Source: Clostridiaceae bacterium (GTDB taxonomy: Bacteria; Bacillota; Clostridia; Oscillospirales; Butyricicoccaceae). From it: a stretch of DNA of 37,175 bases. Location: NCBI GenBank assembly GCA_009911355.1, contig QXXE01000040.1, forward strand, positions 1-37,175. Direction: 5' to 3'. This document shows positions 9,705 through 33,935 of the stretch, piece after piece. A program made the position numbers and the translations under genes. Positions within the stretch are counted from its first letter, which is position 1. The number at the start of each line of letters is the position of its first letter. The notes beneath the pieces were generated by a model. The model saw only the letters and a list, made by a program, of their open reading frames with translations. It ran no database searches and had not been told where the DNA came from.

Positions 9705-9930
9705 GTCCTCGCCGGACGGGCCGCCTGCGCGGCGGGCGGCAGGGCTCTGCCCTGCACCCGCTGGGGCTTCCGCCCCAGACCCCCGAGATGCTTGCGCATC
9801 TCCCCCTCGCCTGCGGGCGGGACGGGGGATGGGCTTACCCTTACCGCTCACCGGCCAGCCCGCCAGAACGGCGGCGGGCTGGCCGGTAAAGATGGACGAA
9901 CCCGGTTATTTGTGATTGCCAACAGGTGGG
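9705..9930. repeat. long-form GC-rich repeat element (no terminal terminator module)
   Basis: Shares 'gcgcggcgggcggcagggctctgccctgcacccgctggggctt', 'gagatgc..gcatctc', 'cgcctgcgggcgggacggg' and 'cagcccgccagaacggcggcgggctgg' with the copies at 23135 and 33645. Confidence 0.75.
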
Positions 9931-9945
9931 CGGTTATGATATGAT
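9916..9945 (+). promoter_or_regulatory. candidate sigma-A promoter TTGCCA-18-TATGAT
   Basis: -35 at 9916-9921, -10 at 9940-9945, about 45 nt upstream of the DJ-1 gene start. Confidence 0.4.
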
Positions 9946-9988
9946 AGGGGTGTAGGCAAACCGCGCCGGAAAGAAAATGGGGGCTATT

Positions 9989-10624
9989 ATGATGTTCAAG
10001 GTTTATGTGTATGTTCTGGATACCCTGGCAGACTGGGAACTGGGGTATGTTACAGCGGAATTAAATTCCAGGCGCTTTTTTAAAAAAGATGCGCCAGGGG
10101 TATCCGTCAAAACGGTCGGTATTTCAAAGGAGCCGCTCAAAACCATGGGTGGGCTGAGCATCGTCCCCGATTGCGTTCTTGACGAGCTTGCGGTGGACGG
10201 GGAAAGCGTTCTGCTGCTGCCGGGAGCAAATACCTGGGATCGTCCCGAACATGGCGCAATCATCCAAAAAGCAGGCGAATTCCTTTCCGCAGGTGCTGTG
10301 GTATGCGCCATCTGCGGCGCAACTGCTGCGCTGGCCAATGCTGGGCTGCTGGATAACAGGATGCACACCAGCAATGGGGTAGGTTATCTTGAAATGGTTT
10401 CGCCCGGCTACAAGGGGCAGGATTTCTATGTTGACCAGCCGTCTGCCGCAGATCACAACCTGATTACAGCAGGCTCTGCCGGGGCCCTGCTGTGGGCAAA
10501 GCAGATTATTGAACGGCTGAACGTTTTTCAGCCCGATACATTAGAAGCGTGGTATGCATATTTCAGCACGGGCGAAGCCCAGCATTTCTTTGCACTCATG
10601 CAGACGTTATCCGCAGGCCAATAA
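9989..10624 (+). CDS. DJ-1/PfpI family (class-I glutamine amidotransferase-like) protein
   Basis: 'VLLLPGANTWDRPEH' and the nucleophile-elbow-like 'AICGATAALANAGLL'. Start placed at the ATG after 'tggggg'. Confidence 0.65.
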   Translation: MMFKVYVYVLDTLADWELGYVTAELNSRRFFKKDAPGVSVKTVGISKEPLKTMGGLSIVPDCVLDELAVDGESVLLLPGANTWDRPEHGAIIQKAGEFLSAGAVVCAICGATAALANAGLLDNRMHTSNGVGYLEMVSPGYKGQDFYVDQPSAADHNLITAGSAGALLWAKQIIERLNVFQPDTLEAWYAYFSTGEAQHFFALMQTLSAGQ

Positions 10625-10703
10625 TACCGTCCGTCCAACCGCAAAAAATGTAGTTTCGGCGGCTGGTATCGTCACGCCTGCATGCAATATGGCGCAGACG
10701 CAC

Positions 10704-10760
10704 AAAAGCCGCTGGCATGGTAACGTCAGCGGCTTCTCGTTTATTCTTCGGTTTTTCCAC
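10704..10760 (+). terminator. intrinsic-terminator hairpin 'aaagccgctggcatggtaacgtcagcggctt' followed by a T-rich run
   Basis: Same 'cgcacaaaagccgctggcat...cagcggctt' module as the hairpins at 23396, 29612 (inverted) and 33895. Confidence 0.5.
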
Positions 10761-23134: not shown

Positions 23135-23445
23135 GCTGGTTCGCCTCCGCAGCGGGCGGCGGGGCTCTGCCCCTGCACCCCGCGCCTGCGCGGCGGGCGG
23201 CAGGGCTCTGCCCTGCACCCGCTGGGGTTTCACCCCAGGCCCCGAGATGCTGCCGCATCTCTCCTCGCCTGCGGGCGGGACGGGGGCTTGGGTGTTCTTC
23301 CCATCCTTCATGCGCTATGACACAGCCCGCCAGAACGGCAGCGGGCTGGTCGGTGTAGGCGCTAATTGGTGGGCGCCCGCTTACTGCTCTCCCGCACAAA
23401 AAGCCGCTGGCATGATGACACCAGCGGCTTTTCTTTGCTTCTGTT
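23135..23445. repeat. long-form GC-rich repeat element, the most complete copy, ending in a terminator module
   Basis: Modules in order: 'gcgcggcgggcggcagggctctgccctgcaccc'; 'gagatgctgccgcatctc'; 'cgcctgcgggcgggacggg'; 'cagcccgccagaacggcagcgggctgg'; 'gtcggtgtagg..aattggtgg'; terminator hairpin. Confidence 0.8.
23396..23445. terminator. bidirectional terminator 'aaaagccgctggcatgatgacaccagcggctttt'
   Basis: 10-bp stem flanked by A- and T-tracts. Terminal module of the 23135 repeat. Confidence 0.65.
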
Positions 23446-23619
23446 CAGTTTTTTGGCTGCGGCTTTGCAGTTTATCTGCATCGTGGGGCTGCCTGTGCGG
23501 CGCTGGTGTTGTTAGCCGCAGATGGTTTTCTGCAAGGGGTTCTTTGTGGGTTTTGGGGGGGGGGGGACGGTTCGGTATGGCAGTGCCCGCGCCGTACAGA
23601 CGCGCCCTGCGCCCGGTTT

Positions 23620-24510: not shown

Positions 24511-24690
24511 GTCCGTCTGCGCGGGGGCGGCAGGGCGCCGCCCTGCACCCGGCCCTCCGCGGGCAGCGCCAAAGGGGCTGGCCCCTTTGGAATCCCTTCC
24601 ATCGCCTGCGGGCGGGACGAGGGGGCGGTGGATGCGCGGGGGGAGTCTGGCTGCTGCCAGTTCCGGCCTCCCCTTTACAGACAGGCTTTC
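24511..24690. repeat. short/medium-form repeat ('cgccaaaggggctggcccctttggaatcccttccatcgcctgcgggcgggacgagggggc')
   Basis: Family core. Lies between the divergent SDR and DUF4317-like genes. Confidence 0.7.
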
Positions 24691-24748: not shown

Positions 24749-24797
24749 ACTATAGAAAAACACGCTTACCGGGTGCATGCTCGGGGAAAGGGACATC

Positions 24798-26321
24798 ATG
24801 ATGAGAATTACAAAGCGCGACGTGCAGGAGCTTCGCAAACGCCTGACCAAAAAAGGCTGCACCTTTGACCGGGTCACTGGCTTTTATATTAACAGCGGCA
24901 GGGAGGTTGTGCTGAGGTTCAGCGAATCCTTTGCGAATCTTCCGGAGGAGGAATTTTTTAAGTATCTGGAAATCGCGAAAAAGGTCTTTTCCGGCACGCC
25001 CGGTAAAAACCTGCTCGAGCTCAGCTTTTCGGATACCGACGAGGGGCGCGCACAGCAGGAATTCCTGCGCACGCTGCGCTCGGATAAGGACTGCACGGAC
25101 GAGCTCATCGATCATTTTTACGATCTGATTATGGAGCATTACCATGCCGAGGGCAGTTATCTTGCGCTGCTGTTCCATGATATTTATGACGTGCCTGTGC
25201 GTACCAAGGACCGCCAGAAGCTGGATGACTCGGAAGAGGTTTACGAGTATATTGTCTGCGCGCTGTGCCCGGTTGACCTGTCCAAGCCCGCGCTTGGCTA
25301 CCGCGAGGAGGAAAACCGCATCGGCGCGCGTGAGCGCGACTGGGTGGTCGGGATGCCCGAGGTCGGCTTTGTTTATCCTGCGTTCATTGACCGGGGCGCG
25401 GACGTGAACGCCGTCATGTATTACGCCAAGAGCGACTCCCACCCGGAGCTTATTGAGGGGCTGCTTGCCTGCGGCGCATGCCGCACCGCCGCTGAGGAAA
25501 AGCTGATGTTTGAAGACGTTATCAATGACGCGTTTGGGGATATGCAGGAGCAGGCGGAAAATACATACCTGTTCATCCAGCGCAACCTTGACGGGCTGGT
25601 TGCCATCCGCGAGGACACCGAGGAGGGCAGCGGCGATTTCGCGCTGACGGCAGAGGATGTTGCCGATGTGATCGCGGATATCGAAATGCCCGACCTTGTG
25701 CGCGAGTCCATTATAGAGGGCTGCGCCGAGATGTTCGGCGGGGATCTGCCGTCGGCGAGCCACCTTGTGGACGCGAAGCTGGCTGCGGAGGGCGAGCGCC
25801 GCGCACAGATCCTGACCCTGCAAAGGAAGATCACCGCGCTCGAGGAACAGCTGGACGAAGCGCGCGGGCTCACCACAGCAGACGCAGAGCCTGCGGAGCC
25901 CCTGGAAAACAGCGCCGAAGGCGCTGCCGTAGCGCCCAGGAAGAAGCTCGAACTGCGTTTGCCAGGCGCGCGGCGGGAATCTGTGCGCGCAGCAGTCATT
26001 GACGGGAAGCGCTGCCTGGTTATCCCGATGGAGGACGGCGAGACAGCCAGCGTGAACGGCGACACGCTGCCGCTTTGGGAGGACGGCGGGCAAGCCGATG
26101 ACGCGGCTATGGAGCCCGAAGCGGTTGCAGCGCCCGCAGAAACGGCTACGGAACCCGAAGCAGGTGCAGCGTCCGCGGAAACGGCTTTGGAGCCCGAAGC
26201 GGTTGCAGCGCCCGCGGAAACGGCTATGGAGCCCGAAGAAGTTGCAGCATCCGGGGAAACCGCTGCTGTAGAAGATGCAGCGGCGCTGACCGAAGCTGCT
26301 GACGTGCCGCAAGCCGATTAA
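24798..26321 (+). CDS. conserved Firmicutes hypothetical protein (DUF4317-like by recall) with C-terminal tandem peptide repeats
   Basis: 507 aa. N-terminal 'ITKRDVQELRKRLTKKGCTFDRVTGFYIN'. C-terminal 4 x 'EPEAVAAPAETAT'. Family name is from memory, not a search. Confidence 0.55.
   Translation: MMRITKRDVQELRKRLTKKGCTFDRVTGFYINSGREVVLRFSESFANLPEEEFFKYLEIAKKVFSGTPGKNLLELSFSDTDEGRAQQEFLRTLRSDKDCTDELIDHFYDLIMEHYHAEGSYLALLFHDIYDVPVRTKDRQKLDDSEEVYEYIVCALCPVDLSKPALGYREEENRIGARERDWVVGMPEVGFVYPAFIDRGADVNAVMYYAKSDSHPELIEGLLACGACRTAAEEKLMFEDVINDAFGDMQEQAENTYLFIQRNLDGLVAIREDTEEGSGDFALTAEDVADVIADIEMPDLVRESIIEGCAEMFGGDLPSASHLVDAKLAAEGERRAQILTLQRKITALEEQLDEARGLTTADAEPAEPLENSAEGAAVAPRKKLELRLPGARRESVRAAVIDGKRCLVIPMEDGETASVNGDTLPLWEDGGQADDAAMEPEAVAAPAETATEPEAGAASAETALEPEAVAAPAETAMEPEEVAASGETAAVEDAAALTEAADVPQAD
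26101..26260 (+). repeat. 4 x 39-bp in-frame tandem repeat ('gagcccgaagcggttgcagcgcccgcagaaacggctacg')
   Basis: Directly visible in the sequence. Encodes the 13-aa repeats at the C-terminus of the 24798 gene. Confidence 0.8.
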
Positions 26322-26329
26322 CATAGAGG

Positions 26330-26510
26330 CCGAAAGACTGCGTCCCGCAGCGCCCGGTGAGGCGCTGCGGGGCGTGCACGCCTGCCGATGAATGCAGATG
26401 TGTTGAGAAAGCCGCCGGGATATCAAAAGCGGATTTCAGATAGGGTTAAAAGACTGCGCCCGGCAGTGCTCGGCGAGACGCTGCGGGCCGTGTATGCCTG
26501 TAAAGGAAGA
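26330..26510 (+). repeat. two copies about 113 bp apart of a 52-nt hairpin-forming motif 'aaagactgcg(t/c)cc.gcag.gc.cgg.gag.cgctgcggg.cgtg.a.gcctg'
   Basis: Copy 1 at 26337-26390 contains the perfect 10-bp stem 'ccgcagcgcc/ggcgctgcgg'. Copy 2 at 26448-26500 lies just 5' of the next gene's RBS. Confidence 0.5.
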
Positions 26511-26523
26511 AAAGGAGGCTGCT

Positions 26524-26877
26524 ATGCTGGTCGACAGCTACAAATATGAAGATGAAATCATTGTCTGCTTGAATGTTGAAGAGCCTGAAATGATGGAAAT
26601 TGGTGCGAAGATGGAGGAAATTAACCCAGAAGCCTATATGAATGGCTATAACTGGGACGCGTTTTTAACGCATTATTTTCGCCTGCACGCGCCCGATCTT
26701 CTGGAAGGGCTTGACCCTGACCCCGAGGCGGGGTCGTATGTCGGGCACTATGAAATGACCGCCGAAAACAGGAAAAAAGCTGAAAAATTTGTTGAAACCG
26801 TAACAAAGCTGCTTGAAAACGAGAATGAAATCTATCGGTTCCTTTGTGAAGAGGGCGATCGGATCGATTGGGACTGA
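26524..26877 (+). CDS. small acidic hypothetical protein (117 aa)
   Basis: Strong RBS aaaaggagg. Lower-GC codon usage. No family recognised with confidence. Confidence 0.5.
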   Translation: MLVDSYKYEDEIIVCLNVEEPEMMEIGAKMEEINPEAYMNGYNWDAFLTHYFRLHAPDLLEGLDPDPEAGSYVGHYEMTAENRKKAEKFVETVTKLLENENEIYRFLCEEGDRIDWD

Positions 26878-27032
26878 AGCCCCCTTGGGTGCGCGGAGGG
26901 GGCGCAGCGCCGGGCGACAACAGCCTGGGAGCAGATGCCGAAAGCGGGAAATGAAGCTGAAAAAGGGATACCGAGCGGTTCCTGCGATACCTGGAACCGG
27001 TTCAAGTAAGTGATTTGTGAGGAAGGATGCAA

Positions 27033-27674
27033 ATGGGACAGTACGTGGATGCAGGGAAAACCCAGCCTAAAAAGAGCATTTGGCTATTCGGCATGGTAAT
27101 TGCTGTTTTCCTGATCATTCAATTCGATGCAGCTGCTTCTGTCATATCAAACCAGATCTTATCTATGGGAAGTACGCTGGTTGTCTGGGGTGCAGGTGCA
27201 GCTGTTATCTGGATCAAGCTGAAAAAGAAAAACTTAGAAAGTGCGCTTTATAGCAGTGTTGCTTTTTCCCGTGCAGATGCGATGATTCTTTTCTTTGCCA
27301 TTGCGTGCGGCGCCGCAATGGCCCTCGGCAATTTTTTATATGCGGGGCTCAAGCCGCTGTTTGTCAGAGAGCTTTTGACGGGTTATCCATTGTATAATAT
27401 CCGAAATATCATTTATTACCCGCTGGAAGTATTGCTGATGTTGGAGCTTCTGATTTGTTCACAGAAAGCGGGGGAGGTTTTTATCAAAGAAGCCCTTCAG
27501 TGGGGAGCGTTTGCGCTGTTTTTGCTGTGGGGATTACCGCATATCTTGTGGCATGGGCTTGCGGATGGCATTGTATCTGCATGCAGGGCGTTTATCTACG
27601 CGGCCCCCTTTTATGCTTCGGGGAAAAAGGTTCAAACGAGCTATATCAGTATGCTGATATTATGGTTTCTGTGA
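27033..27674 (+). CDS. polytopic membrane protein, about 6 TM (weakly CPBP-like)
   Basis: gaggaagg RBS. Hydrophobic segments. 'WHGLAD' is a possible HxxxD. Confidence 0.45.
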   Translation: MGQYVDAGKTQPKKSIWLFGMVIAVFLIIQFDAAASVISNQILSMGSTLVVWGAGAAVIWIKLKKKNLESALYSSVAFSRADAMILFFAIACGAAMALGNFLYAGLKPLFVRELLTGYPLYNIRNIIYYPLEVLLMLELLICSQKAGEVFIKEALQWGAFALFLLWGLPHILWHGLADGIVSACRAFIYAAPFYASGKKVQTSYISMLILWFL

Positions 27675-27696
27675 AAACGCGGGTGGCCAGTGCGAA

Positions 27697-28161
27697 ATGA
27701 TAGAGAATAGGAACGTGACAATCATTGCGGTAGAGGACAGGACCGCGCGGCTGGAAGAACAATTATTGAAGGTGTGGGAAAGCCCGGTAAAGGCAACGCA
27801 CAGTTTTCTGTCAGAGGACGAAATGGCAGACATTAAAAAATACGTCCCGCGGGCTTTAAAAGAAATCCCCTGTTTGGTGATTGCGGAAGATGAAAATCAA
27901 ATTCCGGTTGGTTTTATGGGCATTGCGGGGCAGCATCTTGAGATGCTCTTTATCGCTGCGGAGGAGCGGGGGAAAGGAATCGGCAAAGAACTGCTTGCAT
28001 ACGGGATAGACAGATATTCGGTACGTGACTTAGCGGTTAATGAACAAAACCCCCTTGCAAAAGGCTTTTATGCGCACATGGGATTCCGTGCTTATCGGAG
28101 GACGGAGCGCGACGAGCAGGGAAATCCATATCCGCTTTTATATATGCGGCTGGGTGGATAG
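27697..28161 (+). CDS. GNAT-family N-acetyltransferase
   Basis: 154 aa. 'LFIAAEERGKGIGKELL' is the acetyl-CoA-binding R/Q-x-x-G-x-G/A motif. Confidence 0.7.
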   Translation: MIENRNVTIIAVEDRTARLEEQLLKVWESPVKATHSFLSEDEMADIKKYVPRALKEIPCLVIAEDENQIPVGFMGIAGQHLEMLFIAAEERGKGIGKELLAYGIDRYSVRDLAVNEQNPLAKGFYAHMGFRAYRRTERDEQGNPYPLLYMRLGG

Positions 28162-28231
28162 CTTTTCGCATGCCACGATTGCTTCTGGCGAAGCAGTTTG
28201 ATGAATTATTTTGGCCGGAAAGGACGGTTTT

Positions 28232-28654
28232 ATGCAGTATCAGGACAAATCCGGGATGTTTGCTGATTTTAATTTCAAGCTTGTCGTGATCAACAGCATA
28301 CTAGACAAGCAGCCCAGCTTTGAAGCGTCCCTGGCGGAAAGGAAAAAGCGGTATGTGGAACCCTATGAATGGTACAAAAACGACGAAATAATCCCGGAAA
28401 TGGCGGAATTTTTCGCGGAACTGACGCTGACAGAGGAAGACTTGGCGCAGTGTACCCATCTGGTGTTCGACGGCGGCAGCGATATTTACTTCCTGCTCAA
28501 GCCGGACTGGGACGGGGAGCTGGAGATTTTCGACGTGAGGAGCCTTGCGGGGGTGGAGCGGCTGCGGAATTTGCGGTCGGTAGATTGGACTTCCATGTGT
28601 GAGCCCGCGCTGCTTGCGCCGCTCCGTGACAGCGGCATTGAGGTCAAGGACTGA
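28232..28654 (+). CDS. small acidic hypothetical protein (140 aa)
   Basis: ATG after 'ggaaaggacgg'. No family recognised. Confidence 0.45.
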   Translation: MQYQDKSGMFADFNFKLVVINSILDKQPSFEASLAERKKRYVEPYEWYKNDEIIPEMAEFFAELTLTEEDLAQCTHLVFDGGSDIYFLLKPDWDGELEIFDVRSLAGVERLRNLRSVDWTSMCEPALLAPLRDSGIEVKD

Positions 28655-28751
28655 CAGGCTGTCCACGGCCTGGCCTGACGACGCCCTGTAAGGGAGCGTT
28701 TGCGCTGCCAGGCGAAGCGGGAACCGGCTGACGGGCAAAACGGACGATTAT

Positions 28752-28765
28752 TCGTTTCCGGAAAC
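28752..28765. promoter_or_regulatory. perfect 14-bp palindrome 'cgtttccggaaacg'
   Basis: Lies 105 nt upstream of the zinc-ribbon gene, next to 'ttgcgt-17-taggat'. Confidence 0.3.
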
Positions 28766-28869
28766 GGATTGCAATTTGTGGACTGGTGCAATTGACTTGA
28801 CCGGATTTCGGAATTGCTTGCGTTTTGCATGGATTTGTGATAGGATATGGCTAAAGGGAGGAATTGCAC

Positions 28870-29472
28870 ATGGCAAAAGAAAAAAAGGCAAAAAAAGGCA
28901 AAAAATCACCCAAACTGTGCCCGGAGTGCGGCAGTGAACTGCCGAAGCGTGCGAAAACATGCCCGAGCTGCGGCGCAGAATTAAAAAAGAAAGGCAAGCT
29001 TCGGATTCTGCTGCTGATCGTGGCCGTAGTGGTTGTGTTGGCGGCGGCGGCAGCGGCATTCCTGCTGTTCCGCGGGAGGGCGAACCAGCCGAAGGAGCCT
29101 TCGCTGACTGAGATCAGCACGCAAGCGCCGGCGGCAATTTTTGAAAACCCGGAGGACAGTACGAACCTGGTTGGGCAAAACCTGTACATAGACGGCGAGG
29201 CGGGGACGATTTTACGTCTGTCCGGGCAGGATTGCTGCGAGATTACGACGGAGGACGGTTCATTTGCACTGCTTTCCCGTACTTATACGCCGGTGGAAGA
29301 GTGGGAAAAGCTGGCGGAGAGCGTAAAGCTTCGTGCGTATTTCCGGTATCTGGGGCCGTCTGAGATTTTTGAGATGCCCTCGGGGGCGCTCCTGCTGATA
29401 GAGGTTGCAGAGGAAGAGGAGGAATCTGAGGAAGAGTCTGACGAAGGCTCAGAGGAGGAATCGGACGGTTAA
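28870..29472 (+). CDS. zinc-ribbon (2 x CxxC) single-pass membrane protein with an acidic C-terminal tail
   Basis: 'CPECGSEL....CPSCGAEL', then a poly-Val/Ala TM helix, then 'EEEEESEEESDEGSEEESDG'. agggagg RBS. Confidence 0.6.
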   Translation: MAKEKKAKKGKKSPKLCPECGSELPKRAKTCPSCGAELKKKGKLRILLLIVAVVVVLAAAAAAFLLFRGRANQPKEPSLTEISTQAPAAIFENPEDSTNLVGQNLYIDGEAGTILRLSGQDCCEITTEDGSFALLSRTYTPVEEWEKLAESVKLRAYFRYLGPSEIFEMPSGALLLIEVAEEEEESEEESDEGSEEESDG

Positions 29473-29611
29473 GCCGTAAAGACGACCTGTGATCTGGGAT
29501 TGCAGTCTCCGCGCCGCAGCGGCGGGAACCGGTTGCAAAGGCATGTTGCCGTCGCTGAAAGGGTTTTCGTAAGGGAAGCGGAAGCAGAGCGAAACTGAAA
29601 GTAAGCAAAGA

Positions 29612-29675
29612 AAAGCCGCTGGCGTTATCATGCCAGCGGCTTTTTGTGCGTTTGAGCAGTAATTGGGGGGGGCGA
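29612..29675 (-). repeat. terminal (terminator) module of the repeat element, inverted orientation; left half of a split copy
   Basis: 'aaaagccgctggcgttatcatgccagcggctttttgtgcg..gcagtaattgggggggg' is the reverse complement of the 23396-23445 and 33895-33932 modules. Also serves as terminator of the 28870 gene. Confidence 0.7.
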
Positions 29676-30639
29676 TCCTCTACTTTCGTTAACTTACGAG
29701 CTATGGAAAATTTTAAAAGTCCAGTAATTGATTCATGATCAAATGGCTTTTTGTTTGCAGAAATTTACAAATAACCCAAATCTGCTTTAGATTCAAGCAG
29801 ATTTCTTTGATTTATAGTTTCAAATACTTTTAACAGTTGTTCAGGCCCCCTCAATTTTTCGATATCTCCACCTATACGATTGGTAAGATACAATTTATTC
29901 GGAAATTCAGCTATCAGCTTTTCTTCAAAATTATCACATTGATGCCTTTTTAATATGAATACCCTAGCCGTATCCAGCGCACGGAAAAAATCGATTGAAA
30001 AGGTTGAAGTTTCCACCGCATACATGGGAAATAATGTTCGATCGAACGGTAGAGTAGAAGACCAATGACTCAAAATTCGCCTTTTAATATCCTTTGATTT
30101 TCCAATATACGCTTGCTTATATTTATCTAAAATCATTATGTAATATCCAGATACTCCATCACATTCTGATAAATTTTTTATTTCAAAGAAACGATGCTGT
30201 TTTGTGAACTTTTTAATAACAGAATCAAAATCATCATATTTTAGTTGGCTGAAGTAAATCATATTTAAATCATAATTTTGTAAACAGAGTTTACGGTATT
30301 TTTCGCACCAATCCATATTGTATTCGCTACCATCATCTGTATACGCATTTTTCGCAATAAGGGATTGAAATTTTGGCAGCGATGGCTTTGTGTTGATTAA
30401 TGCAAATTCTTCTCTTATAAGGTTGAATGAATACTTCCTTTTTCTAAGTGTTATGCCCATATGCTCCATAAAGTAAATTCACTCCTTTAATTGTTTGGCA
30501 ATAAGGTCAGCAATTTAAACGGTATGGAAATTTTTGCAAGTTCGGCAAACAATTCATGTTTCGAAATTACGGCAATATTAAATAACTTTAATCCGTTTAA
30601 TATTGATAATAGAGATCTCTCATCTTTTGCCCTGCACCG
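29676..30639. mobile_element. 0.96-kb AT-rich (about 33% GC) insertion carrying a GIY-YIG nuclease gene, splitting a repeat-element copy
   Basis: Repeat element sequence resumes on both sides in collinear, reverse-complemented order (29612-29675 and 30640-30905). Very low GC against a 62% background. Confidence 0.55.
29765..30469 (-). CDS. GIY-YIG nuclease-domain protein with an N-terminal domain of unknown function
   Basis: 234 aa. 'GVSGYYIMILDKYKQAYIGKSKDIKRRILSH' (GIY...YIG...R...H) and a downstream 'E'/'N'. aaaggag RBS. Confidence 0.65.
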   Translation of the reverse strand: MEHMGITLRKRKYSFNLIREEFALINTKPSLPKFQSLIAKNAYTDDGSEYNMDWCEKYRKLCLQNYDLNMIYFSQLKYDDFDSVIKKFTKQHRFFEIKNLSECDGVSGYYIMILDKYKQAYIGKSKDIKRRILSHWSSTLPFDRTLFPMYAVETSTFSIDFFRALDTARVFILKRHQCDNFEEKLIAEFPNKLYLTNRIGGDIEKLRGPEQLLKVFETINQRNLLESKADLGYL

Positions 30640-30905
30640 ACGCAGCCCGCCGCCGTTCTGGCGGGTTGCGTCACAGGGCACGAAGGAGGGGCAACACCCT
30701 AAAACCCCTGTCCCGCCCGCAGGCGACGGAAGGGATTCCAAAGGGGCTAGCCCCTTTGGTGCCGCCCGCGTAGGGCCGGGTGCAGGGCAGAGCCCTGCCG
30801 TCCCGCCCGCAGGCGACGGAAGGGATTCCAAAGGGGCTAGCCCCTTTGGCGCTGCCCGCGCAGGGCCGGGTGCAGGGCAGAGCCCTGCCGTGTGCGCGCC
30901 GCGCA
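30640..30905 (-). repeat. remainder of the split repeat element, inverted, containing a tandem duplication of a 105-bp unit
   Basis: 'cagcccgccgccgttctggcgggttg' is the reverse complement of 'cagcccgccagaacggcggcgggctgg'. Then 2 x 'ccgcaggcgacggaagggattccaaaggggctagcccctttgg.gc.gcccgcg.agggccgggtgcagggcagagccctgccg'. Confidence 0.75.
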
Positions 30906-30919
30906 GCCGACGGAACCCC

Positions 30920-32128
30920 TTAAGCGTCCAGCTGGGACTGCTTGACCAGGCGCTCGGTGTCCTGCGCAATCATCAGCTCCTCGTTCGTCGGGATTACCAG
31001 CACGCGCACCCGCGCCCAGTCAATGCTGATATCCATCTGCCGCCCGCGGAACTTGTTCTTCTCCGGGTCAATCTTAATGCCCAGGTACTCCATGTGCGAG
31101 CATACGTCCCAGCGCACCGAACGGTCGTTTTCACCTACGCCAGCCGTGAAGATAATCGCATCTACACCGCCCATCTCCGCAATGTAAGAGCCAATGATCT
31201 TCTTGACCGAGTTGTCAAACATGTCCTTCGCAAGCTTCGCACGCGCGTTGCCCTCTTCGTTCGCCGCGTCCAGGTCGCGGAAGTCCGACGATACGCCCGA
31301 AATGCCCAGCATACCCGACTTTTTATTCAAAATATTGATAACTTCCTTCGCCGAAAGCCCTTCGTTCTCCGCCAGGAACTCAATGATCGCCGGGTCAATA
31401 TTGCCCGCGCGCGTGCCCATCGGCAGTCCGTCCAGCGGCGTAAAGCCCATCGACGTATCAAACGATTTGCCATTCTTGATCGCCGCAATCGACGACCCGT
31501 TGCCCAAATGGCACGTGATCAGCTTCAGCTCGTCCAGGTCACGCCCCAGCATCTCCGCCGCCTGCTGCGCAACATACTTGTGCGACGTGCCGTGGAAGCC
31601 GTACCTTCTGATCTTATACTTTTCATAGTATTCATACGGGATTGCATACATATAACTGGTCTGCGGCATGGACTGGTGGAACGCCGTGTCGAATACCGCG
31701 ACCATGGGCACATCCTTGCCCATGACCTCCTGGCACGCCCGGATGCCAATCAGGTTGGGCGGGTTGTGCAGCGGCGCAAGCGGCACGCAGTCCTCAATCG
31801 CCTTGATCACCGCCTCCGTAATCAGCACCGAATCCGAGAAGAATTCACCGCCGTGTACCACACGGTGCCCGACCGCGTCGATCTCCTTCATAGAAGAAAT
31901 GACGCCCTGCTCCGGGTCGAGCAGGATGTTGATAACCGCCGAAATCGCTTCCGCATGGGTCGGCATCGGCGTTTTGATCGTCGTCTTGTCCTTGCTGCCC
32001 GTATGCACCAGCACACCATCAATCCCAATGCGCTCGCACAGGCCCTTTGCCATAACCTTCCCGTCGACTGTGTCAATCAGCTGGTATTTCAGCGATGAAC
32101 TGCCAGCATTGATAACCAGAACCTTCAT
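30920..32128 (-). CDS. ackA: acetate kinase
   Basis: '[17 protein letters not shown]', 'VGHRVVHGG' and 'FDTAFHQ' are canonical AckA motifs. Start coordinate is +/-1 nt because of my position reading. Confidence 0.9.
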
Positions 32129-33644: not shown

Positions 33645-33935
33645 CCCCTCTCGCCTGTGCGGCGGGCACCAGAGGGCTCTGCCCTCTGGACTCCCAGCAG
33701 GGCGCTGCCCTGCACCCGCTGGGGCTTACGCCCCAGACCCCGAGATGCTGTCGCATCTCTATGTCGCCTGCGGGCGGGACGGGGACTTCTGCCCGCCCTT
33801 CACGCTCCGTGACCCAGCCCGCCAGAACGGCGGCGGGCTGGTCGGTGTAGGTTATTTGATTGGTGGTTTCCCACTTAACGCTCAAAACGCACAAAAAGTC
33901 GCTGGCATTATGACACCAGCGACTTTTTTTAGCTT
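33645..33935. repeat. long-form GC-rich repeat element, complete, with terminator module at 33895-33932
   Basis: Collinear with 23135-23445, including 'gagatgctgtcgcatctc', 'cagcccgccagaacggcggcgggctgg' and 'gtcggtgtagg..attggtgg'. Confidence 0.8.

What the first reader, a model, noticed from the sequence alone, without database searches (positions are those of the whole stretch)
29612..30905. AT-rich GIY-YIG nuclease cassette inserted inside a copy of the genome's GC-rich repeat element
- The 33%-GC segment 29676-30639 carries a 234-aa ORF with a clear GIY-YIG catalytic core (GYY..YIG..R..H) and its own strong RBS.
- The flanks at 29612-29675 and 30640-30905 are the reverse complements of consecutive modules of the long repeat element. 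Intact copies of that element lie at 23135-23445 and 33645-33935. The break falls between the 'gtcggtgtagg' module and the 'aattggtgg...terminator' module.
- A nuclease gene with foreign base composition sitting precisely inside a multicopy element is the signature of a homing-endonuclease-like or otherwise self-mobile nuclease cassette that targets the repeat.
- The 100-aa N-terminal domain is unassigned.
- The cassette could alternatively be an effector of a defence or abortive-infection system delivered with the adjacent low-GC islet.
Basis: partly seen in the sequence, partly recalled or inferred. Interest (0 to 1): 0.78.

Follow-up and report, generated by a model that had tools for sequence, protein, structure and literature searches.

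The report
Uzume defence nuclease gene cassette insertion
A 947-bp AT-rich insert carrying one gene of the known Uzume (UzuA) anti-phage nuclease family sits cleanly inside a GC-rich repeat next to the ackA terminator and is intact, broken or absent in different strains of this gut bacterium, so it is an ordinary strain-variable defence gene and has not been shown to home into the repeat.

Summary
A 947±4 bp segment (window 29674-30620; 32% GC, GC3 0.29, against ackA GC3 0.76) carries one 234-aa ORF (29765-30469, minus strand). It splits a GC-rich repeat module about 25 bp from the terminator shared by ackA and a zinc-ribbon gene. Strains with an identical AckA protein supply the true empty site. 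There the module is continuous (64 nt, against 63 nt once the insert is removed), with no target duplication and no significant terminal inverted repeat.

Among about 19 sampled conspecific contigs, about 5 carry it intact, about 5 carry an 11-bp frameshift deletion, and about 9 lack it. It occupies only this one locus. Other repeat copies are empty, and relatives elsewhere sit at unrelated sites. Homing into the repeat is therefore not supported, and co-delivery with the neighbouring islet is refuted.

It is a new member of a known kind. A related 915-bp UzuA cassette, about 99% identical at 10 or more unrelated sites, keeps a self-mobile reading open.

The parts
29674..30620 (-). Inserted AT-rich single-gene cassette (947 +/- 4 bp, 32% GC)
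   Evidence: Comparison with the empty allele in L091, L094 and L097. GC content. The module is 63 nt without the insert, against 64 nt in the empty allele.
29765..30469 (-). uzuA ORF, 234 aa (Uzume single-gene defence family; GIY-YIG nuclease)
   Evidence: PADLOC UzuA E 2.7e-69, residues 1-226 against profile positions 52-268 of 277. All 28 aligned homologues match UzuA. NCBI names the identical protein 'GIY-YIG nuclease family protein'.
30170..30469 (-). N-terminal domain (residues 1-100), family-specific and unassigned. Invariant residues: H3, W54, C55, Y58, R59, C62, N65, D67.
29870..30157 (-). GIY-YIG catalytic domain (residues ~105-200): Y110, Y121, G123, R131, H135, E182, N197
30470..30620 (-). 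Cassette 5' untranslated region with ribosome-binding site AAGGAG (30482-30487). Only a weak sigma-70-like candidate promoter (TTGCAA-16-TAAATT).
   Evidence: Read from the sequence. The consensus scan finds no promoter here at its threshold.
29778..29804 (.). 10-bp-stem hairpin overlapping the last codons of the ORF; possibly the cassette's own weak terminator
30264..30274 (-). 11 bp deleted in about half of the occupied strains (slippage between two AAATCAT repeats); frameshifts uzuA after residue 68
   Evidence: L089, L092, L093, L098. Fragment proteins of 74, 165 and 186 aa in the same 90% cluster.
29611..29644 (-). Host bidirectional intrinsic terminator (13-bp stem) shared by ackA/uzuA and the convergent zinc-ribbon gene. 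Part of the repeated terminator module.
   Evidence: Repeat families D8 and D11.
29645..29673 (-). Terminator-side half of the split spacer module, including an 8-nt G/C homopolymer (29665-29672) whose length varies between strains
30621..30726 (-). ackA-side half of the split module ('GGGCTGCGTCGGTGCAGGGCAAAAGATG' and the CAACCCGCCAGAACGGCGGCGGGCTG hairpin)
   Evidence: Inverted-repeat pairs I3, I16 and I25. Alignment A1.
30710..30889 (.). Two tandem 90-bp GC-rich hairpin units downstream of ackA. The copy number (1 or 2) varies between strains.
   Evidence: Repeat family D3. L089 and L098 lack one unit.
30920..32128 (-). ackA (acetate kinase, 402 aa), the co-oriented upstream host gene
   Evidence: PF00871.

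Best explanation
The ORF encodes UzuA, the only protein of the Uzume anti-phage defence system. It is a two-domain protein. A family-specific N-terminal domain of about 100 aa is presumed to be the specificity or sensing module. It is fused to a complete GIY-YIG nuclease domain, presumed to be the effector that cuts invading, or on activation cellular, nucleic acid.

The gene reached this high-GC gut Clostridia species by horizontal transfer from a low-GC donor, as a 947-bp single-gene cassette. It inserted cleanly into the spacer of a GC-rich repeat module in the ackA 3' untranslated region, about 25 bp upstream of the bidirectional terminator and co-oriented with ackA. It can therefore be transcribed by read-through or from a weak promoter of its own, and it ends at the host terminator.

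It is a strain-variable accessory gene with rapid turnover: intact, frameshifted or absent.

Shown here: family membership, fold, catalytic residues, insertion junctions, the empty allele, the polymorphism, and occupancy of a single locus.

Inferred: nuclease activity, anti-phage role, transcription mode, and how the DNA got in.
For: Family and fold:
- PADLOC UzuA E 2.7e-69 over the full length, and all 28 homologues match it.
- The catalytic Y, Y, G, R, H, E and N residues are invariant.
- The literature lists Uzume as a single-gene system of unknown mechanism (PMC10482375; PMC12926258), with GIY-YIG homology reported (10.1101/2024.10.26.620412).

Foreign origin:
- GC 0.32 and GC3 0.29, against ackA 0.57 and 0.76.

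Insertion and polymorphism:
- Empty allele with a continuous module in L091, L094 and L097.
- Presence, frameshift and absence occur among contigs with identical AckA.
- Only one locus is seen across the 21 contigs with the exact protein and the 8 with the 99% variant.

Distribution typical of defence genes:
- Patchy across Clostridia, Bacilli, Actinobacteria and one archaeon.
- Found on plasmids, beside a serine recombinase, and in plasmid- or ICE-like cargo regions.

Variable spot:
- Other strains carry a different 1.35-kb single-gene insert on the other side of the same terminator. The islet beyond it also varies.
Against: - No experiment on this protein exists. Anti-phage activity is known only for the family's founding member, cited here from memory of Millman et al. 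2022; the preprint version held in the library does not mention Uzume.
- The four immediate neighbours have no PADLOC hit, so this is not a recognisable defence island.
- Half of the occupied strains carry a frameshift, so selection to keep the gene is weak in this species.
- The Pfam GIY-YIG score is below the curated cut-off.
- The protein lacks the first ~51 positions of the PADLOC UzuA profile.
- The insertion mechanism is unknown.
Confidence: 0.78

Rival explanations
1. Free-standing, homing-endonuclease-like selfish cassette. UzuA would cut a specific site in genomes that lack it (here the repeat spacer next to the terminator), and repair would copy or capture the cassette. The 'defence' phenotype would be a side effect, or a second benefit.
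For: - The insertion is clean and carries one gene only, and an empty allele exists in the same species.
- Frameshift decay in half of the occupied strains fits the gain-decay-loss cycle of homing endonuclease genes.
- In many higher-GC hosts the homologue is a 650-1350 bp low-GC islet holding only that gene.
- A 915-bp cassette holding only a 272-aa UzuA homologue is 98-99.7% identical at 10 or more unrelated chromosomal sites in 8 or more species, with sharp ends.
- A second set of cassettes, 92-93% identical, occurs in Virgibacillus and Oceanobacillus, including two loci in one genome.
Against: - Other copies of the same module in the window are unoccupied, and only one locus is seen in the species.
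- Insertion sites of relatives share no sequence with this one.
- The only Pfam match is the weak GIY-YIG hit; no NUMOD, IENR1 or HTH DNA-binding module is reported.
- No homologue in 50,697 phage records. Neither cassette is found in the viral contigs.
- No group I intron or other RNA family.
- No target-site duplication, and the terminal inverted repeat is not significant: 31% of random internal window pairs score as well.
- Insertion next to terminators can be explained by survivorship, since these are neutral sites.
Confidence: 0.14
2. Passive passenger. The cassette is a neutral or mildly costly fragment of foreign DNA, captured once by illegitimate recombination at a recombination-prone repeat and terminator hotspot. 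It is now decaying and has no current function in this species.
For: - About half of the occupied strains share the same 11-bp frameshift, and L098 has a further 5-bp deletion.
- Many truncated products fall in the same 90% cluster.
- There are no defence neighbours and no strong promoter.
- The locus is generally unstable: repeat-unit number, homopolymer length, a second insert and a variable islet all differ between strains.
Against: - In the window strain and in about 5 sampled contigs the ORF is intact, with all catalytic residues and a good ribosome-binding site.
- The family is strongly conserved: 59% mean column identity with 46 invariant columns. This implies selection on the protein wherever it persists.
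Confidence: 0.06
3. Effector of a multi-gene defence or abortive-infection module delivered together with the adjacent low-GC islet (Imm51, membrane protein, GNAT, DUF6892, zinc ribbon).
For: - Physical adjacency. The neighbouring genes have lower GC than the host core: 46-56%, with GC3 0.51-0.70.
Against: - Independent presence and absence. L098 has the cassette without the islet. L091, L094 and L097 have the islet without the cassette. L090 and L096 have the cassette with a different neighbour set beyond the zinc-ribbon gene, including a T4SS coupling protein and Maff2.
- The composition differs sharply: 32% against 46-56% GC.
- The islet genes are convergent to uzuA and separated from it by a terminator.
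- None of the islet proteins hits PADLOC.
- Uzume is a single-gene system.
Confidence: 0.02

Closest known systems
Uzume (UzuA), a single-gene anti-phage defence system (Millman et al. 2022; PADLOC PDLC03975)
   Same: Full-length profile match (E 2.7e-69). A single gene with a GIY-YIG-like nuclease domain. Patchy distribution in Firmicutes and Actinobacteria, with carriage on plasmids and mobile elements.
   Different: It lacks the first ~51 profile positions and so belongs to a short-N-terminus subfamily that starts MEHFG. It is not in a recognisable defence island. It is untested experimentally, and it is frameshifted in many strains of the same species.
Free-standing GIY-YIG homing endonucleases (T4 Seg proteins; I-TevI and I-BmoI class)
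   Same: GIY-YIG catalytic fold and residues. A small, compositionally foreign, single-gene insert between host genes. Occupied and empty alleles both exist. The gene decays by frameshift.
   Different: Pfam reports none of the NUMOD, IENR1 or HTH DNA-binding modules. The non-catalytic domain is N-terminal and unrelated. There are no phage or intron relatives. No multi-copy spread into the repeat is seen. Homing is not demonstrated.
Phage T4 endonuclease II (DenA; PDB 2wsh)
   Different: Only 17% identity. EndoII is a phage enzyme that degrades host DNA. It has no equivalent of the UzuA N-terminal domain.
PD-T4-3 and PD-Lambda-1 (other single-gene defence systems reported with GIY-YIG homology)
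   Same: The same concept: a one-gene defence system built on a GIY-YIG-like nuclease (10.1101/2024.10.26.620412).
   Different: The PADLOC scan (E up to 1) listed no PD-T4-3 or PD-Lambda-1 model; only weak PDC-S14 and HEase hits appeared besides UzuA. These are different families.
Single-gene defence cassettes of integrons
   Same: Small cassettes with no, or only a weak, promoter, each carrying one defence gene. They insert in a fixed orientation and rely on outside transcription signals.
   Different: No integron integrase, attC site or attI site is present here. The host is a Firmicute, and the insertion point is a repeat and terminator spacer.
REP/BIME-type intergenic repeat mosaics as insertion hotspots (analogy recalled from memory)
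   Same: The target is a mosaic of GC-rich hairpin modules in 3' untranslated regions. The number of modules varies between strains.
   Different: What inserted is a gene cassette without a transposase. There are no inverted repeats and no target duplication.

Membership tests
Uzume (UzuA) defence system | Significant full-length match to the UzuA profile | tested here: met
   PADLOC PDLC03975: E 2.7e-69, 231.9 bits, residues 1-226 against profile positions 52-268 of 277. 28 of 28 homologues match, best E 4.8e-84.
Uzume (UzuA) defence system | Single-gene system with no obligatory partner gene | tested here: met
   The cassette holds only this ORF. Neighbouring genes differ between strains and between genomes.
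Uzume (UzuA) defence system | GIY-YIG-like nuclease domain | tested here: met
Uzume (UzuA) defence system | Confers resistance to phage infection | not testable with these tools
   This needs phage challenge of a strain expressing the gene, alongside catalytic mutants.
Uzume (UzuA) defence system | Located among other defence genes (defence-island enrichment, a family-level property) | tested here: not met
   Four neighbouring proteins and the alternative 374-aa cargo have no PADLOC hit. This is a statistical property of the family and is not required of each member.
GIY-YIG homing endonuclease (free-standing or intron-encoded) | GIY-YIG catalytic domain with a complete active site | tested here: met
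GIY-YIG homing endonuclease (free-standing or intron-encoded) | Appended sequence-tolerant DNA-binding modules (NUMOD, IENR1, HTH or zinc finger), normally C-terminal | tested here: not met
   Pfam reports nothing except the weak GIY-YIG match. NCBIfam grpIintron_endo scores 17.6 bits against a cut-off of 56. The extra domain is N-terminal and has no structural match.
GIY-YIG homing endonuclease (free-standing or intron-encoded) | Resides in a self-splicing intron or intein, or between conserved genes of phage genomes | tested here: not met
   No Rfam intron. No phage homologue and no viral contig. BFVD gives only weak matches, E >0.04.
GIY-YIG homing endonuclease (free-standing or intron-encoded) | Cognate empty allele exists and is cleaved by the enzyme; the gene is copied into it | tested here: inconclusive
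   An empty allele exists (L091, L094, L097). Cleavage and conversion cannot be tested here. Similar modules at 23.3 kb and 33.8 kb are unoccupied.
Transposable element (IS or MITE-like) | Terminal inverted repeats and target-site duplication | tested here: not met
   The inverted-repeat score of 7 is reached by 31% of random internal window pairs. Module length is 63 nt against 64 nt in the empty allele, so no duplication.

The most novel reading that the evidence does not exclude
UzuA genes may be autonomous single-gene mobile cassettes. On this reading the GIY-YIG nuclease itself promotes insertion of its ~0.9-kb cassette, which has no strong promoter or terminator, into the 3' untranslated regions of co-oriented host genes, close to terminator or repeat hairpins. 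'Uzume' would then be a chromosomal selfish nuclease element that also acts as, or was mistaken for, a defence system.

Observations in its favour:
- The clean insertion in the window.
- The 915-bp cassette that is ~99% identical at 10 or more unrelated sites in 8 or more species, usually just upstream of a terminator hairpin.
- The single-gene low-GC islets in many other hosts.
Probability: 0.14. Interest if true: 0.75.

Novelty: new member of a known kind. Interest (0 to 1): 0.36.

Why it matters
As it stands, this is a well-resolved example of how a one-gene defence system enters and leaves a gut commensal genome. It shows a base-level insertion junction, a natural empty allele, and a natural frameshift allele, all within one species. 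That gives ready-made isogenic-like material for testing Uzume, whose mechanism is still unknown.

It also shows that the ackA terminator region is a small hotspot for gene turnover.

The broader point is that UzuA genes travel as ~0.9-kb single-gene cassettes that land next to terminators. If that reflects an active, nuclease-driven mechanism, it would blur the line between homing endonucleases and defence systems. It would also explain how single-gene defences spread without integrases.

Tried and rejected
- Terminal inverted repeats. The ends GATCTCTA and TAGAGGATC looked suggestive, but 31% of random internal window pairs score as well.
- Target-site duplication. None: the module is 63 nt against 64 nt in the empty allele.
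- Conserved non-coding cassette ends shared with other family loci. No nucleotide similarity was found.
- Group I intron or other structured RNA. Nothing at Rfam gathering thresholds; the sub-threshold hits fall below their cut-offs and several overlap the terminator.
- Phage origin. No tblastn hit in the phage collection, no viral contig with either cassette, and only weak BFVD fold matches.
- A 'cargo slot' in the repeat element. The copy at 9.7-10.75 kb also has a gene (DJ-1/PfpI, 9977..10624) between the hairpin modules and the terminator module. That gene is present in all nine conspecific contigs that span the site, so it is a resident gene, and the idea is unsupported.
- N-terminal domain fused to other effectors. 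Among the ten longer hits tested, GIY-YIG follows it directly in eight, and no other effector domain was found.
- Sequence search of the PDB. Only T4 EndoII, at E 0.22.
- A true empty site for the 915-bp cassette. None was found among the held loci.
- The afdb50 fold library was not available.
- The published Millman 2022 paper is not held in the library, and its preprint does not mention Uzume.

Full report
**Checking the observation**

The window averages 61% GC. The 400-bp windows covering 29601-30400 drop to 31-37%. The only long ORF there is 29765..30469 on the minus strand (234 aa). It has an AAGGAG ribosome-binding site at 30482-30487. Its GC3 is 0.29, against 0.76 for the adjacent ackA.

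The repeat search shows that 29592-29667 is the reverse complement of 23376-23451 (76 nt, 87%). It also shows that 30643-30726 is the reverse complement of 23265-23348 (84 nt, 82%). These are two consecutive parts of the intact copies at about 23.1-23.45 kb and 33.6-33.95 kb. The distal part of the right flank (30710-30889) is two tandem 90-bp units of another module type, like 24519-24626. The 'element' is therefore a mosaic of GC-rich hairpin modules that ends in a conserved terminator module, not one fixed sequence.

**The empty site**

I looked up contigs that encode exactly the window's AckA protein (402 aa, 30920-32128 minus strand). They gave three alleles of the ackA to zinc-ribbon intergenic region.

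- L090, L095 and L096 are 99.2-99.7% identical to the window and have an intact 234-aa gene.
- L089, L092, L093 and L098 carry the same cassette with an 11-bp deletion (window 30264-30274, slippage between two AAATCAT repeats). This frameshifts the gene after residue 68. L098 has a further 5-bp deletion.
- L091, L094 and L097 lack the cassette. In them the module reads straight through, '...GGGCTGCGTCGGCGTAGTGCAAAAGATGGGTGCTCACCCGGTCACAGCCCAGAACACACAAAAGCCGCTGGCATGATAACGCCAGCGGCTTT'.

Against this, the window reads '...GCAAAAGATG|AGAGATCTCTATT...GTAGAGGATC|GCCCCCCCCAATTACTGCTCAAACGCACAAAAAGCCGCTGG'. The insert is therefore window 29674-30620 (947 ± 4 bp). The module is 63 nt without the insert and 64 nt in the empty allele, so the insertion was clean, with no deletion and no target duplication. 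The ends look like a short inverted repeat, but 31% of random internal window pairs score as well.

Counting the 'similar places not shown', about 5 contigs are intact, about 5 are frameshifted and about 9 are empty.

**What the protein is**

- Pfam gives only a sub-threshold GIY-YIG hit (E 0.0018, 19 bits against a 22.6-bit cut-off). PHROGs gives nothing.
- PADLOC gives a full-length match to UzuA, the single protein of the Uzume defence system (E 2.7e-69; residues 1-226 against profile positions 52-268 of 277). All 28 aligned homologues match the same model.
- The alignment shows invariant Y110, Y121, G123, R131, H135, E182 and N197, the full GIY-YIG catalytic set.
- An exhaustive HMMER search with residues 1-101 finds the N-terminal domain almost only in proteins of 200-330 aa. 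Among the ten longer hits tested, GIY-YIG follows it directly in eight, and no other effector domain was found. It is a family-specific partner of the nuclease.
- NCBI already names the identical protein 'GIY-YIG nuclease family protein [Clostridiaceae bacterium]'.
- The literature held here lists Uzume as a single-gene system of unknown mechanism (PMC10482375, PMC12926258). One preprint notes GIY-YIG homology (10.1101/2024.10.26.620412).
- That Uzume was validated against phages comes from my memory of Millman et al. 2022. The published paper is not held, and the preprint does not name Uzume.

**Does it target the repeat?**

- In the window, the homologous spacers at 23.3 kb and 33.8 kb are unoccupied.
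- Every contig that encodes the exact protein (21 read) or its 99% variant (8 shown) has the same ackA and zinc-ribbon context.
- The copy at 9.7-10.75 kb has a DJ-1/PfpI gene between the hairpin modules and a terminator module. That gene is present in all nine conspecific contigs that span the site, so it is a resident gene and not a second cargo.
- In 80 loci from other genomes the homologues sit at unrelated sites, and their non-coding flanks share nothing with this cassette.
- There is no phage homologue, no viral contig, no intron RNA, and no Pfam match to a homing-endonuclease DNA-binding module.

Homing into the repeat is therefore not supported.

Co-delivery with the neighbouring low-GC islet is refuted by independent presence and absence. 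L098 has the cassette without the islet. L091, L094 and L097 have the islet without the cassette. L090 and L096 have the cassette with a different set of neighbours, including a T4SS coupling protein and Maff2.

**What keeps the self-mobile idea alive**

- Across the family, the gene is often a low-GC islet of 650-1350 bp holding only that gene inside a much higher-GC host. Examples:
  - Gemmiger (L030): the gene lies between two co-oriented genes.
  - Allofournierella (L013): it lies directly after a terminator and before the next gene's ribosome-binding site.
  - L017: it again lies directly after a terminator-like hairpin.
  - Bittarella (L011).
- Eight species-representative genomes and four metagenome contigs share a 915-bp block that carries only a 272-aa UzuA homologue. 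The block is 98-99.7% identical, has sharp ends, and sits in flanks that are otherwise unrelated, giving at least 10 distinct sites. In about 7 of the 10 it lies just upstream of a terminator-like hairpin and is co-oriented with the upstream gene.
- A second set of cassettes (92-93% identical) links Virgibacillus with two loci of one Oceanobacillus genome.
- In this species, the alternative 374-aa cargo of L091, L094 and L097 sits on the other side of the same terminator and is co-oriented with the zinc-ribbon gene.

These regularities could reflect an active mechanism. They could equally reflect survival of insertions only at neutral sites where they are transcribed. I therefore keep the selfish-cassette reading as a minority rival (about 0.14).

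Other members of the family sit beside a serine recombinase, in plasmid- or ICE-like cargo regions, on plasmids, and inside a 10.7-kb element shared at 99.97% identity by four Microbacterium species. That is the usual behaviour of defence genes.

**Verdict**

The finding is real and precisely delimited, but its identity is known. It is a new member of the Uzume (UzuA) family, acquired as a single-gene insert at a variable terminator-proximal site and turning over quickly within the species.

How the protein acts, and how the DNA was inserted, are both inferred. My working model is nuclease attack on invading or cellular nucleic acid, gated by the N-terminal domain.

Interest is moderate to low for the finding itself (0.36). 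The cassette mobility seen in relatives is the part worth following.

Noticed in passing
L048 4641-5556 (also L049, L054, L057, L058, L060, L061, L072, L129-L132): A discrete 915-bp block carries only a 272-aa UzuA homologue. It is 98-99.7% identical in 8 species-representative genomes and 4 metagenome contigs, at 10 or more sites whose flanks are otherwise unrelated. The ends are sharp ('AA|ATAGTAAGTTGTAGGG...' and '...AAAAAATTACAA|KTT'), and a terminator-like hairpin usually lies just downstream.
   Followed up: partly
L048 4645, 5610, 6226; L057 4879, 5808; L058 71, 1035; L072 4645, 6695, 9664: The motif ATAGTAAKTTGTAG recurs in one orientation about 25-35 nt upstream of the start codons of neighbouring small, unrelated, co-oriented genes (HAM1-like NTPase, MGMT and others). 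It could be a host promoter or leader motif, or a cassette-array boundary. This is unresolved.
   Followed up: partly
L091 5480-6840 (also L094, L097); the corresponding window position is between 29606 and 29612: Strains that lack the uzuA cassette carry a different ~1.35-kb insert (~45% GC) on the other side of the same terminator. It encodes a 374-aa protein with no Pfam or PADLOC match and is co-oriented with the zinc-ribbon gene. A second alternative cargo at the same hotspot.
   Followed up: partly
window 29665-29672: The 8-nt G/C homopolymer at the cassette junction varies in length between strains: one shorter in L090, L093 and L096, one longer in L098, three longer in L092.
   Followed up: yes
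window 30710-30889: The number of 90-bp GC-rich hairpin units downstream of ackA varies between strains: two in the window, one in L089, L091 and L098. Gene callers turn these repeats into spurious ORFs, such as a 160-aa product in L090.
   Followed up: yes
window 9714-10758: The same layout occurs here: hairpin modules, then a 215-aa DJ-1/PfpI gene (9977..10624, lower GC than its neighbours), then the conserved terminator module. The gene is present in all nine conspecific contigs that span the site.
   Followed up: yes
window 26400-29472 and L090/L096/L098: The islet next to the cassette (Imm51, a 215-aa membrane protein, GNAT, DUF6892, zinc ribbon; 46-56% GC) is itself variable. In L090 and L096 it is partly replaced by a T4SS coupling protein and Maff2 (ICE-like). 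In L098 it is absent, and carB-region genes follow instead.
   Followed up: partly
window 26095-26289: Four to five tandem 39-bp repeats inside the 514-aa ORF 24777..26321 encode an acidic Ala/Pro/Glu-rich repeat (AAPAETAxEPEAV).
   Followed up: no
L080, L081, L082, L085 (whole loci): Four Microbacterium species share a >10.7-kb stretch at 99.96-99.99% identity around their UzuA homologue. This points to a recently transferred larger mobile element.
   Followed up: no
L025, L026, L053: UzuA homologues with premature stops (pseudogenes) in other genomes, including two Slackia species. Decay of this gene is not confined to the window's species.
   Followed up: partly
L111-L118: One UzuA variant (P0082) always sits in a conserved three-gene block (195 aa, UzuA, 440 aa) next to DnaB_C and NikA-like genes. 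The genes upstream of the block vary, as in a plasmid or ICE cargo region.
   Followed up: no
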